The translations under genes and the position numbers were made by a program. Below are positions 6,919-20,915 of a stretch of 64,000 nt of DNA, one piece after another. Below the pieces are notes generated by a model. The model was not told the origin of the DNA. It saw only the letters and a program-made list of their open reading frames with translations, and did no database searches. The DNA is taken from NCBI RefSeq assembly GCF_964213995.1, contig NW_027590139.1, positions 1,302,001 to 1,366,000 on the forward strand. Reading direction: 5' to 3'. Position 1 is the first letter of the stretch. Each line of letters opens with the position of its first letter. The DNA comes from Mustelus asterias (taxonomy: Eukaryota).

Positions 6919-7545
6919 TTGCGGTTTCGGAAGATGCTGTGAAAGAAGGTTTGACCAGTGTATTGAATCAAATAGGTTTAAATGCAAACAACAATTTTCA
7001 GTGGAAGCCTGTGGCTCTGTTAGTTAATATTAAGTTATTGTAAACATAGTTATTTTTAAAGGAAGAAACCTATAAATATTTCTAAATAACATCTCACTCC
7101 AACATCACTGAGCCCGTGCGTTGAACACACATGCCCATTCTGCGCATATGCATCAAACACACAATGAACTCCCTTCAATCATTTATTTCATTTACAATGT
7201 GGCGTTTATCTATTTAACACATTGTTCTATTCCAATCCCTCATGACTCCCGGGCTGCAGCTTACGGCTGTGGAGATTTTTCATCGTTAGAGAGAAGCTAA
7301 TTTAATTGAGACCTCAGGCACAGGTACTGAAAAATCAAACGCTGTTTCCTTCCGTTATCTTCACCCGAGTGATTGGAAGGGTTAAACAGCCAAAAATCCT
7401 TTCAATTCCTGTCAAATTCCCTGTCGTGCGATAAAGAAATTCACTTTGTCCCTTTCGTCCCTCCACCAATAGAACTAACTGGAGGTAAAGGAGCTGTGAA
7501 ATTATTGGTTGAATTCAGGAAAACAGGAGCTTGAGTCGATTGGAT

Positions 7546-7602
7546 GCCACGTGATGACGTTGTTGGCAATGAACCAATCAGCAGGAGCCAGGATGTGACT
7601 CA
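7546..7602 (+). promoter_or_regulatory. Putative V-gene promoter (E-box CACGTG, CRE-like TGACGT, CCAAT, AP-1 TGACTCA)
   Basis: gccacgtgatgacgt...accaatca...gtgactca lies 80-130 bp upstream of the leader ATG at 7680. Confidence 0.5.
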
Positions 7603-7679
7603 ACTTCTACCCATTTCTTGCCGCAAACAATTTCAGCTTCAACCAGCTCTGGTCAAATCCGTCCGAGCTCCCGTCAAAC

Positions 7680-8899
7680 ATGTCTCCTGTTACGCTGTAC
7701 TTATTCCTCACAGCGTCAGCTCTTTTAACCCGTAGGTTCACAAGTTACTCAATTCTGTGTTTCACATCTTTACCACACATTATATTCTGTTGAGCTCAAT
7801 GGGGTCAATGCAACGGGCGAGGGGTGGGTGATCGGGGAAATGGATTGATCCCAATTTCGAAAAGTCATTCGGATCTCGCTGGTCTCAAAACAGAACACTG
7901 TTTGTTGGGAGTTGGCACATTTACCCCAGGGAATGAGAGAGGAATAGTTGGGCTGAGATTCAAACTCCTCTGGTGCCAGTGAATGTCTTTGCAAACGCCA
8001 GACTTTTAAACACAGAGAGTGAGCAGTTCCTGTTACAGTAACAGAGGAACTGATCTCGTTAGTAAGTGTGGAATGTTTATGATGGAAGTTTTATTCGATC
8101 ACCACAAGCACCTTCCCGTTCCAGCGAATATACTGTGAAAAATATCTTTCTGTTCAGTTGTCTGATTTGTCTTTGAGGTTATTATTGTGGGCGGTACGGT
8201 GAGACAGTGGTTAGCATTGCTTCCTCACAGCTCCAGGAAACTGGGTTCGATTCCCGGTTTAGGTCACTGTCTGTGTGGAGTTTGCACGTTCTTCCCTCTG
8301 GTTTCCTCCCATTCCAAAGATGTGCGGGTTAGTTGCATTGGCCATGCTAAGTTTGAGAGTTTGAGACCCTTTGTGCCCTGGGATACGTAGGTTAGATGGA
8401 TTAGCAGGGTAAATATGTGGAGGTACGGGGATAGGGCCTCCGTAAGATTGTTGTCAGTGCAGACTCGATAAGTCGAATGGCCTCCTTCTGCACTGTCGTG
8501 ACTTTATGACTTTGTTGTTCAACATGGCGGGCAGATTCTGGGCCGAAACAGTCAAGTCGCATTGTGTAAGTTAATATTTATTTGTACCCTTACAGGACAT
8601 TCCCGAGAAGATTCTGTTACACAGACACCGACTGCAGTCACTGTCACTGAAGGAGATGATGTTAGGTTGTTCTGTAATTATACAACGACAAGCAACCACA
8701 TTTATCTATTCTGGTACCGTCAGTATCCCAGCGGGTCCATGGAGTATCTGGTGCAGACAAATAAATACACCGGGAACACAGACAGGTCTTCAGAGTACCG
8801 TTTTTCTGCGGAGCTCAATGATACAGCCCGCACCGTCCCACTGAAGGTGTCTAAAACAGAGCTGGCAGACTCCGTGGTGTATTACTGCGCACTGAGACC
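7680..8899 (+). CDS. TCR alpha/delta V segment, apparently functional (leader exon 7680-7731; V exon 8596-8899)
   Basis: Leader MSPVTLYLFLTASALLT with phase-1 gtaggt donor; acceptor ttacag; EDSVTQ...VRLFCNY...WYRQYP...RFSAEL...LADSVVYYCALRP with both Cys and Trp. Confidence 0.9.
8187..8500 (+). mobile_element. V-SINE (HE1-like) in the V leader intron
   Basis: ggcggtacggtgagacagtggttagcattgct...gtgtggagtttgcacgttc...aatggcctccttctgcactg. Confidence 0.85.
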
Positions 8900-8938
8900 C
8901 ACAGAGACTCACAGCTGGGCTGAACCTGTACAAAACTG
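8900..8938 (+). other. 23-RSS
   Basis: CACAGAG + 23 bp + ACAAAACTG. Confidence 0.85.
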
Positions 8939-9852
8939 TCAGAGCCTCATTCAACATAACAGCGCATTAGACGAACGTTGTGATCAGAGTGAGTCTTGTT
9001 GGCATCTTAAAAATTTAATTCTAATACACTTTTTTATTATTAAATATATTACCAAACTAAAACAATGGGGGCAGTTTAGAGAATGGGCATTAGAATATTT
9101 CTAGAGTTTGATCTCCCAAACTGTTTCCCTGTCACTGTGGGAAACACAGCAGCCAATTTGGCATCAGCGTGTCATTTCATTCAATAATATTGTAGCGTTC
9201 TGACTGTTTCAATAATTGTGATTGGTGAACAGATATCAAGCAGGACATTTCGCCTACTCTTCTTGAAAACAGTGAACATGTGATATGTCACCTCCACCTA
9301 AGAGGAAAGACGGAAGATTTCACAGGTCATCGAGAGGCTGGCAGCTCTGACGGTGCATCATTCCTTGAGCACGACAGTGTCCCTTCGGGAAATTCCCGGA
9401 TTCTCATTCATGCCAGACTGCCGATGTCCTCTGGAGTGCAAAGAATTTCTGAACAGACTACAGACAGAACCCGGGAAATCAGAGGAGGTGGTGAACATTC
9501 ATTAACCCAATTCGGGAGACAAACGGACTGAACTAAAGAAAATGAAATTAAAAATAAACTTTACTGGGACCATGGAAGCATATGGACAATGAAGTTAATC
9601 TCCAGAAAGAAATTTCACTCGAAAACAGAAGGAAATACTTTTATTGACAGTCTTTTACAGACTTCAGATATCCCAAAGCACTTTCTAACCCAAGGAAACT
9701 CATTTGTACTGTAGTCGCTGTGGTGATGTTAGGAACGTTATTAACACAAAAATCAGTGGGAATGTTTAATTCTCTGTCCAAAAGGGTTGCTACACTGATC
9801 CTGGAGTAAAGACGTTGAGGAGTCCAGATATTTTCCGATTACTTTGAAATAT

Positions 9853-18619: not shown

Positions 18620-18658
18620 AGTTTTTGTGCAGGGGTGAGACTGCTTTCCATCACTGTG
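18620..18658 (-). other. 23-RSS (near consensus)
   Basis: CACAGTG + 23 bp + ACAAAAACT. Confidence 0.9.
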
Positions 18659-19113
18659 ATAGCTGGAAAGCGCAGTAATACACGGCGACATCAGTCAGCT
18701 GCAGATCCGAAACGGTTAAACTGGTGAATTTAGTCGATGTATGAAGCTCGATAGAGAAACGGCTTTTGGCAAAACCTGCTTTATCTTCACTGTTGTATGT
18801 ATTTCTCCGCACGATAAACTCGGGATGGTTTCCTGGGAGTTGCCGGTACCAGTGTAATTCATAGTTTCTCTGTGTAGTTTCATAGTTACAGGTGAATATG
18901 AGCGCTGCTCCTTCTGCCTTAACATCTGAGGGCAGCGGCTGAGTGACAGAATCTCCATGACTCAGATCTGGAATATAATAAATTAATCAGGAAAAGTATA
19001 GACCGGTGGCTGGTTGAAATCTGATTCCAATCAAGCTTGGGGAATGAAAGAACGCATCCACATTTACCTGCCAGAAATATTCCCCACACAACCCAGATGC
19101 TGAGCAGCCGCAT
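18659..19113 (-). CDS. TCR alpha/delta V segment, apparently functional (leader 19068-19113; V exon 18659-18967)
   Basis: MRLLSIWVVWGIFLA|DLSHGDSVTQPLPSDVKAEGAALIFTCNYETTQRNYELHWYRQLPGNHPEFIVRRNTYNSEDKAGFAKSRFSIELHTSTKFTSLTVSDLQLTDVAVYYCAFQL; canonical splice sites, no stops. Confidence 0.92.
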
Positions 19114-19664
19114 TGTCTCTGTCCGCTCTGTGAAAGGGGAGGGTTTGGATATTTAGCCAACCGTTCTAAACCCCGCCCTCAATAATCTGCTGCCGTGTCT
19201 CAGGCTGTACTCACCTCACTTCCTTGCTTTTCCATTGGTGCTGTGAGGCCGGCAGATAGCAAAGAGAATCACCCCGAGCTGCATTACAGTCACTATTCTT
19301 GCAGAGAAAATGCTTCCCGAATTATCCACCAGAGTTGGGGAAGGAACACCTTCACCTTAATTGTACTAAAGAAAGTAAATAATTTTTGAATGAATTTGTC
19401 ACTTTGTTTTCATGGATTTTGCTCCACTAGCAGCGTAGTGATAACCATGACTGCAGTGAAATTCCTCTCACGGGCTTTAATTATTATTAATACATGAAGT
19501 AATGTCAGCGTTACTGGGAAGTCTAGATTTCAACTCCATTCCTAATTACCCTTGAGAAGGAGAGGGGGTGTGCAGGTTCTTAAACTGCTGTGGTCTCTCG
19601 GGACTATTAATATGGTGAAAGAGGATGCGTAGCACATCTAGCTTTTCCAGTAATAGAAAGTTCC

Positions 19665-19897
19665 TCCCGGTGCTGCTGTTTCATCCCAAACTCCAAAGAT
19701 GTGCAGGTTCGGTGGATTGGCCAAGCTAACTTGCCCCTTAGTGTCGCAAGATGTGTGTGTAGGTTAGGGGGATTAGCGGGCTGAATATGTGGGCTTCCGG
19801 GGATAGGGCCTGAGTGGGATTGTTGTCGGGGAGTCGGTGTAGGTTCAATGGGCCAAATTGCCTCCTTCTGCACTGTAGGGATCCGATGTTTCTATGA
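19665..19897 (+). mobile_element. V-SINE 3' part
   Basis: ccaaagatgtgcaggttcggtggattggcc...gcctccttctgcactgtaggga. Confidence 0.8.
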
Positions 19898-20915
19898 TAT
19901 TCAGGCAAGTAGATTTGAAAAAATGGAAAAGCATTGACTGTAGGAACCTGCAGCCGACATTGGAGCATGGTCATTGTCGCATCACACGTCACTATAGGTA
20001 AAACACTCCAGTGTATTCTACCGTTCTGCTCTCAATGTTGAAAATGCTTTAAAGGCGAATGTTTAATTGAGAATGTCAATATCGAGACTGAGCTGCCGAC
20101 CAGTGCTGTTGCTGAGGAACTTTTGGCCATAGTTCCGTAGATGCCTATTCAAGTAGCTAATTTTGGTTGCATTGAACTGGGTTGCAATCATTAATGTCCA
20201 TTTATGTTAGGTATGAAAGTATGTATCTGGCATATATTCACTGAGAGCGAGTCAATATCCCAATGCTGAAACTCGAGTAAAGCTGAAACGCCCTCTGGTG
20301 GCATTTGTTCGAATTATGTGCCTCAATGTTCCACTTCTCCCTGAGAGATTGCACAGGACTGTGTTGCGGTGTGGGAGATCCTTATACTTGGAAAGCGTGC
20401 CTCGTGCAGTGGGGAAGAGAATTATATTTTACTCTGAGAGATTTGGTTTGAAGCGCAGATTGGACACAAGGATGGATATCCATTTTGCCTGATGGGGAAA
20501 GGAGTTTGGCAAAGTGATGATTTATTCATTTTTTATTCAAGATTTACTTTAAAAATTCAGAGAACATTTTACAGAAACGTTTTTTTAAAGTTCACAGAAG
20601 GGAACATAACAATTGATTTTCATATTGAGAACAGAGCACGTGTGCTCTGAGCTGCCCAATATATGTACAACTGTAACAGACACCAAAAAGAGAAAACAGG
20701 AGCTCAACATGAAGAAAAGGAAACAATTGTGTATGTCGCGAAAAGATGGAAACAAAACATTGTTGTTGCAGGCATCTGTCCCCAGAGGCTCAGCAATGTG
20801 CAATGTAAGAGAAGTTAAACTGGCTGACAAACTGTCCTCCAGATTCCTACTTCATGAGAAATTTAAATAAAGGGTCGTTTCACAAACTAATCCTCAGCAA
20901 TGGGAAAGAAGAACA

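What the first reader, a model, noticed from the sequence alone, without database searches (positions are those of the whole stretch)
6920..20740. Island of TCR alpha/delta V segments embedded between paralogous tRNA arrays next to a ZNF cluster, with no D/J/C
Seen: at least 7 V segments in ~11.5 kb, two fully intact with 23-RSS. Both flanks are copies of the same tRNA repeat block; homology stops at the psi-tRNA-Glu near 6920 and resumes near 20740. No J (FGxG with RSS) or C exon was recognised in 64 kb. Inference: either an orphon V block moved by recombination between tRNA units, or a translocon whose V region is interleaved with tRNA/ZNF arrays, where Pol III/TFIIIC sites might act as insulators.
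Basis: partly seen in the sequence, partly recalled or inferred. Interest (0 to 1): 0.7.

Follow-up and report, generated by a model that had tools for sequence, protein, structure and literature searches.

The report
Copied shark T-cell-receptor island among tRNAs
This is a real island of seven shark T-cell-receptor variable gene pieces (two with intact reading frames) that is fused to a block of tRNA genes and occurs in ten places in an assembly holding 19 delta and 2 alpha constant genes, so its intact pieces likely join partners 0.2 to 2 million bases away rather than being stranded orphans.

Summary
The island is real: 7 TCR alpha/delta-type V segments (2 intact, 3 perfect 23-RSS), no J or C in 64 kb. 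It is not a misassembly: 10 places span the left junction and 7 other copies span the right one. It is also not an insertion by recombination between tRNA units. The flanks are direct paralogues, and each junction is a separate non-homologous fusion; the left one cuts a tRNA-Glu pseudogene before its B box. The cassette was then copied within a V/IgM/ZNF/tRNA territory spanning at least 13 Mb of C71 and about 60 unplaced contigs. That territory has 19 open delta C genes (at least 10 loci), most with their own D and J, and two alpha J-C arrays (74% identical C). The J-alpha array on C71 follows 190 kb of ZNF genes with no delta cassette. A 96-99.7% copy of the window lies 1.9 Mb from J-alpha. 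Use in T cells is untested. Scattered V segments are published for sharks; multiplied delta/alpha cassettes were not found in 9 literature searches. The scan already noted the 19 delta genes on other DNA of this genome.

The parts
1256..6908 (.). Left tRNA/pseudo-tRNA block (copy A), with tRNA-Gln(TTG) 2871-2944(-) and a U2-like sequence 2166-2369(+)
   Evidence: 70-83% identical in direct orientation to 20742-29334
6866..6908 (+). 5' part of a tRNA-Glu pseudogene, cut before the T arm/B box; left fusion point at about 6905-6908 (shared CAG)
   Evidence: 30 tRNA-block copies stop here, 3 older V islands start here with other upstream DNA
7680..8938 (+). V1: leader 7680-7731, V exon 8596-8899, 23-RSS 8900-8938 (imperfect nonamer); open frame
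   Evidence: (V-set E 1e-12)
11379..11597 (-). V2 pseudogene fragment (second Cys replaced, 5' part decayed)
   Evidence: 32.8 bits
12148..12402 (-). V3 pseudogene (stop codon; weak profile score; heptamer follows)
   Evidence: 14.5 bits vs control 12.8
14271..14642 (-). V4: continuous leader-plus-V frame 14642-14310 with perfect 23-RSS; second Cys is Tyr in this copy, Cys in 6 of 6 other copies read
15157..15652 (+). V5 pseudogene (stop and frameshift) with perfect 23-RSS from 15614; inverted paralogue of V7 (70%)
16509..16649 (-). V6 pseudogene fragment (3' end only)
   Evidence: 20.4 bits
18620..19113 (-). V7: leader 19113-19068, V exon 18967-18659, perfect 23-RSS 18658-18620; intact
   Evidence: (V-set E 2e-13); 66% identical to a horn shark protein
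20735..20742 (.). Right fusion point: island DNA joined to the interior of a tRNA block; in two sister copies the island runs on to the 3' end of an IgM C gene instead
20742..30549 (.). Right tRNA/pseudo-tRNA block (copy A'), with tRNA calls at 23515, 23885, 24976 and 30476 (all -) and a near-whole tRNA-Glu pseudogene at 29291
31893..62385 (.). Six C2H2 zinc-finger exons on both strands (7-15 fingers each)

Best explanation
The island is a slice of a shark TCR alpha/delta V field that is fused to tRNA-block DNA at two non-homologous junctions and occurs in ten places in the assembly, and its intact segments (V7 above all) likely rearrange over 0.2-2 Mb or more to one of many delta D-J-C cassettes or to one of two J-alpha arrays. 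Shown: anatomy, junctions, copy number, C/J/D inventory. Inferred: the order of events (fusion first, then segmental duplication), that the tRNA and ZNF genes are passengers of the same duplications, and that RAG joins these V segments by deletion or inversion, which would cut out or flip the ZNF and tRNA genes in between.
For: Junctions: 10 of 40 scored places span the left junction at 94-100%, the other 30 stop at 6891-6908; three 75% islands begin at 6906-6917 with non-tRNA upstream DNA; 7 of 9 copies read span the right junction and 2 run to an IgM 3' end. Partners: 19 delta-type C genes and 2 alpha-type (55 of 55 and 56 of 56 candidates scored); 35 J with 12-RSS before C-alpha on C71. A 96-99.7% copy of the window is 1.89 Mb from the first J-alpha with V7 in the same orientation; another copy has V1 inverted 229 kb behind a D-delta. 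Use of island V: a V1-family pseudogene is joined to D-delta at C71:11,023,768 with trimmed ends. Selection: V7 frame, heptamer and nonamer are intact in 10 of 10 copies read; 13 of 30 amino-acid changes fall in CDR1/2, which hold 20% of the sites (p=0.003).
Against: No transcript evidence (no RNA run was listed). C107 is unplaced, has no TCR C hit over 1.42 Mb and is colinear with C71 for only about 98 kb, so this copy's distance to J/C is unknown. The C91 copy has at least 1 Mb without a TCR C hit on each side. Five of 7 V segments are broken and V1 has a weak RSS and is damaged in several copies (deletion in 3, Cys loss in 1). The CDR-versus-framework N/S contrast is not significant (Fisher p=0.17) and the count ignores phylogeny and gene conversion. 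The joined V is not one of the window's own genes.
Confidence: 0.68

Rival explanations
1. Functional orphon: the island lies in the receptor territory but too far from any D/J to be used, and is decaying after passive duplication.
For: 5 of 7 V broken; no C hit on C107 or on the other unplaced contigs that carry this island; at least 1 Mb free of C on both sides in C91.
Against: V7 open with intact RSS in 10 of 10 copies while neighbours decay; CDR excess of amino-acid change; a sister-family island V is joined to D-delta.
Confidence: 0.2
2. The flanking tRNA genes act through TFIIIC/Pol III as insulators or accessibility elements for the V island.
For: tRNA blocks flank both sides here and recur among V islands across C71. 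tRNA insulator activity is established in other systems (recalled, no call).
Against: The left boundary tRNA is a cut pseudogene without B box; most block members are below threshold; sister islands with the same intact V lack tRNA at one end and older islands lack it at the other. A five-term literature search found no paper, which is no evidence either way.
Confidence: 0.07
3. The V block was inserted by homologous recombination between tRNA repeat units.
For: Direct paralogous blocks on both sides; left break inside a tRNA-Glu pseudogene.
Against: The right flank restarts at the far end of the block instead of continuing it; the island side of both junctions has no tRNA homology in sister copies; only a few bases are shared at each join.
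Confidence: 0.03
4. Assembly artefact: the junctions or the many C copies are misjoins or unpurged haplotypes.
For: Some pairs are near-identical (C71c/C850 0.6, C123/C106 1.4 changes per kb; C1681 99.96% to the window), so part of the count is probably allelic.
Against: Junctions recur in 10 and 8 places with 1-6% divergence; the 19 delta genes fall in 10 groups at least 14 changes per kb apart, three on one scaffold; no N in the stretches that carry junctions.
Confidence: 0.02

Closest known systems
Elasmobranch antigen-receptor complex, AgRC (Flajnik et al. 2025, PMC12227049; seen: parts 1-2 of 8 of the text, term passages, all of Table S1; supplementary PDF not read)
   Same: TCR alpha/delta-type V exons scattered between IgH clusters over megabases (white shark chr27, 8.2-17.1 Mb in Table S1).
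   Different: The paper calls TCR alpha/delta a translocon; its table shows one delta C directly before one alpha C in stingray and catshark. Here there are 19 delta and 2 alpha C genes, and no delta cassette in 190 kb before the C71 J-alpha array. The main text has 0 hits for zinc, ZNF, tRNA or orphon.
Newt TRA/TRD separation and other duplicated TRA/TRD loci (PMC12698447; seen: passages and Discussion part 1 of 2)
   Same: TRD uncoupled from TRA; two TRA loci; a germline-joined delta V; the paper lists extra TRD loci in flounder and Galliformes and duplicated TRA/D in carp and alligator.
   Different: Those cases have 1-2 extra loci, often on other chromosomes; here at least 10 delta cassettes share one V/IgM/ZNF/tRNA territory.
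Shark Ig miniclusters and germline-joined Ig genes (PMC6795676 passages; PMC2193156 abstract)
   Same: Many V-D-J-C-type units; RAG-like joining in germ cells, as the V-D joint on C71 may be.
   Different: This island has no D-J-C of its own, so it is not a minicluster; the repeated unit on the delta side is D-J-C with varied V neighbours.
Orphon V genes (e.g. opossum TRMV-OR2, PMC2275272 passages)
   Same: V with RSS, far from J/C in the window.
   Different: Orphons lie outside their locus, on another chromosome; near-identical copies of this island lie on the scaffold that carries J and C genes.
ZNF genes around shark MHC class Ia-like genes (PMC10751288 passages)
   Same: C2H2 ZNF arrays packed around shark immune genes.
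   Different: Concerns the MHC, not the rearranging receptor region; no tRNA mention (0 hits).

Membership tests
Functional TRA/TRD V gene | Split leader and open V exon with both Cys and the Trp | tested here: met
   V1 and V7; V4 lacks the second Cys; the other four are broken
Functional TRA/TRD V gene | 3' 23-spacer RSS | tested here: met
   V7 perfect; V1 imperfect nonamer
Functional TRA/TRD V gene | Closest to alpha/delta V among shark receptors | tested here: met
   56-66% to shark and ray proteins, one labelled TCR alpha-like by its source; no tree against beta/gamma/IgL V was built
Functional TRA/TRD V gene | Found in rearranged transcripts | not testable with these tools
   no RNA run listed
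Orphon V | Outside the locus that holds J and C | tested here: inconclusive
   not met for the copies on C71; C107 itself is unplaced and without TCR C
Canonical TRA/TRD translocon | One delta C and one alpha C | tested here: not met
   19 and 2
Canonical TRA/TRD translocon | Delta D-J-C directly upstream of the J-alpha array | tested here: not met
   C71 18.18-18.37 Mb holds 107 zinc fingers and no V, D or delta C, without N; no delta C hit on C546, whose upstream part was sampled in 5 of 14 10-kb pieces and has a gap
Ig-type minicluster (V-D-J-C) | Each V unit has its own D, J and C within tens of kb | tested here: not met
   none in the window or in 80 kb of flanks searched for V and tRNA; no TCR C on C107
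Elasmobranch AgRC | TCR alpha/delta V, IgH clusters and TCR C linked on one chromosome | tested here: met
   all on C71; IgM-type C exons on C107
Elasmobranch AgRC | Linkage to PSMB5 and UrIg2 | not tested
   not searched
tRNA-gene insulator | Intact B box bound by TFIIIC at the boundary | tested here: not met
   left boundary pseudogene lacks the B box; binding itself not testable

The most novel reading that the evidence does not exclude
In this shark the TCR alpha/delta locus has fallen apart into at least 10 working delta D-J-C cassettes and two alpha J-C arrays, strewn through more than 13 Mb of duplicated V, IgM, ZNF and tRNA blocks. V islands like this one are a shared pool. T cells delete or invert megabases of ZNF and tRNA genes when they rearrange, alpha joining no longer removes all delta genes, and germline RAG joins help move cassettes next to new V islands.
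Probability: 0.5. Interest if true: 0.8.

Novelty: new variant of a known kind. Interest (0 to 1): 0.6.

Why it matters
Shark TCR loci are described as single translocons and shark Ig loci as miniclusters. A TCR delta locus in 10 or more cassettes, uncoupled from J-alpha, blurs that line. It makes three questions testable in one animal: how a T cell expresses one delta chain with many loci on offer, whether alpha/delta exclusion needs the nested layout, and how far RAG can reach across unrelated genes. The island alone, with its tRNA flanks, is ordinary segmental duplication.

Tried and rejected
Pfam DUF1968 (TCR alpha C) found nothing in the genome (0 of 17 candidates); a shark C query was needed. 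I first took C546 for the allele of the C71 C-alpha locus and dropped this: no match of 93% or more over 1 kb in the J arrays and 74% protein identity; two old haplotypes of one locus cannot be excluded (allelic divergence of fish TCR C domains is recalled, not checked). I first took C107 for the allele of C71:16.4-17.8 Mb: colinearity ends after about 98 kb, and 2 of 3 sampled pieces have no full-length C71 match. No RNA holder was listed, which says nothing on expression. Short-read contigs of 4 runs (3 samples, 1 study) laid on the V-D joint showed only unjoined D and V ends among the 32 of 208 pieces listed; this does not tell germline from somatic origin. The window junctions were not checked with reads. 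PDB searches gave only generic antibody hits. Five key papers were not held (PMC7909615, PMC7039070, PMC3222143, PMC1458790, doi 10.1073/pnas.91.20.9248), so older reports of several TCR C loci in horn shark, which I recall, were not checked.
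Full report
1. What is in the window. The window is C107:1,302,001-1,366,000 of a 3.68-Gb assembly; V-gene relatives are all from sharks, rays and a chimaera apart from one seal protein. A profile scan of six frames gives seven V-like segments between 8596 and 18967 on both strands and none elsewhere in the window. V1 (leader 7680-7731, exon 8596-8899, +) and V7 (leader 19113-19068, exon 18967-18659, -) splice in open frame. V4 (14642-14310, -) is open but has Tyr for the second Cys; the other four are broken. 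Perfect 23-RSS follow V4, V5 and V7 (6 matches at up to 2 mismatches, 0.26 expected). V1's nonamer is one A short of its relatives. No 12-RSS was found. Five tRNAs pass Rfam in 1-31000 and six zinc-finger exons follow from 31893.

2. The junctions. The flanks are direct paralogues at 70-83%: 1256-1513 matches 20742-20999 and 5537-6908 matches 27912-29334. So the right flank starts the block again; it does not continue it. Left junction: of 40 scored places (2816 candidates), 10 span it at 94-100% and 30 match only the tRNA side, stopping at 6891-6908. Three older islands (about 75%) match from 6906-6917 onwards with unrelated upstream DNA. The join therefore fuses the first 40 bases of a tRNA-Glu pseudogene, without its B box, to V-island DNA at a shared CAG. 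Right junction: 7 of 9 other copies read span it; two (C71:7.33 Mb, C128:0.367 Mb) leave the window's sequence at 20734 and reach the secretory tail of an IgM C gene about 4 kb on. Both joins are real, separate and non-homologous. That fusion came before amplification is inferred from 94-100% identity across the join against 75-84% for the unfused relatives.

3. The surroundings. V1-family DNA extends this to 4.7-17.8 Mb. The tRNA block recurs at 11 sites on C71. IgH-type C exons lie along C71 and twice on C107. The whole window has a 96-99.7% copy at C71:16.44-16.50 Mb, but colinearity covers only about 98 kb and two of three distant C107 samples have no full-length C71 match. C107 is thus an unplaced piece of the same duplicated territory, or a structurally different haplotype.

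4. Where J and C are. A whale-shark C region found 19 C1 exons and 19 TM exons of one type and a weak second type (41 matches, 55 of 55 candidates scored). All 19 C1 and TM exons are open; the hinge exon was not checked. J segments were found before 18 of 19 (only 5 kb held for the last). Of the 12 with at least 23 kb held upstream, 10 have a D with 12- and 23-RSS, one has a joined D and one had none detected. I call them delta because of the D. They fall into 10 groups at least 14 changes per kb apart, one group having 5 members, so at least 10 loci even if both haplotypes are assembled. Three lie on C71 (7.14, 11.04, 12.27 Mb). The second type has two genes, 74% identical (56 of 56 candidates scored): C71:18.42 Mb after 35 J segments, and C546 after at least 84 J segments in the 60 kb read. 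I call them alpha because of the long J arrays without D. The 190 kb before the C71 J array hold 107 zinc fingers and no V, D or delta C, with no N. On C546, V genes and ZNF exons lie upstream across a 200-N gap.

5. Are island V segments used? Direct RNA evidence is missing. Indirect: (a) V7 keeps frame, heptamer and nonamer in 10 of 10 copies read (one of them has lost the conserved Trp), while V5 beside it carries a stop in every copy read; 1 of 14 close V7 matches in the genome has a stop. (b) 13 of 30 amino-acid changes among 8 distinct V7 sequences lie in CDR1/2, which hold 20% of the sites (p=0.003), but the N/S contrast is not significant (p=0.17). (c) At C71:11,023,768 a V1-family pseudogene is joined to D-delta, both ends trimmed with one shared base. 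The V side is a 26-kb, 98-99.7% copy of an unjoined island at C71:4.70-4.73 Mb whose V has the same lesions and an RSS; the D side is 3-5 changes per kb from three unjoined cassettes. Germline joining is known for shark Ig genes (PMC2193156, abstract); short-read contigs did not settle the origin. Against use: five of seven segments are broken, and no unplaced contig carrying this island has a TCR C hit; the C91 copy is at least 1 Mb from one on both sides.

6. Mechanism. Shown: the island, its two fusions, its copies and the partner inventory. Inferred: segmental duplication spread V islands, tRNA blocks, ZNF genes, IgM clusters and delta cassettes together. Intact V segments would join by the 12/23 rule to J-alpha (the C71 copy of V7 by deletion over 1.89 Mb) or to D-delta (the 7.35-Mb copy of V1 by inversion over 229 kb). 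Deletional joins would remove the ZNF and tRNA genes in between. Nothing here points to a role for the tRNA genes.

7. Comparison with print. Flajnik et al. 2025 (PMC12227049; parts 1-2 of 8, passages, Table S1) report alpha/delta V exons between IgH clusters, over 9 Mb in white shark, but describe a translocon and do not mention tRNA or ZNF in the main text; the supplementary PDF was not read and may bear on this. A review also states the translocon arrangement (PMC6795676, passages). Nurse shark BAC work saw 17 close germline V segments (PMC5931798, passages). Newts have TRA and TRD apart and two TRA loci (PMC12698447). Nine searches (listings seen) showed no report of ten or more delta cassettes in a shark, but five central papers were not held, and I recall unverified older reports of several TCR C loci in horn shark. 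Earlier notes of this scan, seen after my counts were made, report the same 19 delta genes on other windows of this genome; their minicluster reading does not fit this island, which has no cassette near it in most copies.

8. Verdict. Observation largely right; orphon-by-tRNA-recombination and insulator readings not supported; the interleaved-locus reading is supported and the locus is more unusual than proposed. New variant of a known kind, interest 0.6.

Noticed in passing
G000:C71:18,370,803-18,431,907 and G000:C546:140,448-242,101: Two alpha-type J-C arrays with C domains 74% identical; 35 J on C71, at least 84 J on C546. Two loci or two very old haplotypes.
   Followed up: partly
G000:C71:11,023,472-11,023,780 (L033:3472-3780): V1-family pseudogene joined to D-delta with trimmed ends; germline or somatic origin open.
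   Followed up: partly
G000:C71:18,180,001-18,370,000 (L067-L085): ZNF array (107 fingers) sits where the delta cassette lies in other sharks, directly before J-alpha.
   Followed up: yes
window 14310-14642 (-): V4 seems to carry its signal peptide in the same frame as the V exon, with no leader intron, in the window and in the copies on C71 and C159.
   Followed up: no
window 2166-2369 (+): U2 snRNA-like sequence just above the Rfam threshold inside the left tRNA block.
   Followed up: no
G000:C71:7,100,143-7,102,645 and 12,240,609-12,240,942: IgH-like V exons with 23-RSS lie 8-15 kb before D-delta in two cassettes, as expected for Ig-V/TCR-delta hybrids (label from the literature, no tree built).
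   Followed up: no
G000:C96, C119, C436 delta C genes: A diverged delta C subgroup, about 9% from the other 16, with a different N-terminal stretch and one extra Cys in two of them.
   Followed up: no
G000:C71:10,998,775-10,999,239 (L139): An insertion of about 150 bases interrupts an IgH-like V that is whole in the sister copy at C71:4,728,287-4,728,616.
   Followed up: no
window 44521-45012 and 47908-48477: Young minisatellites (19-base unit x26; 95-base unit x6) inside the ZNF cluster.
   Followed up: no
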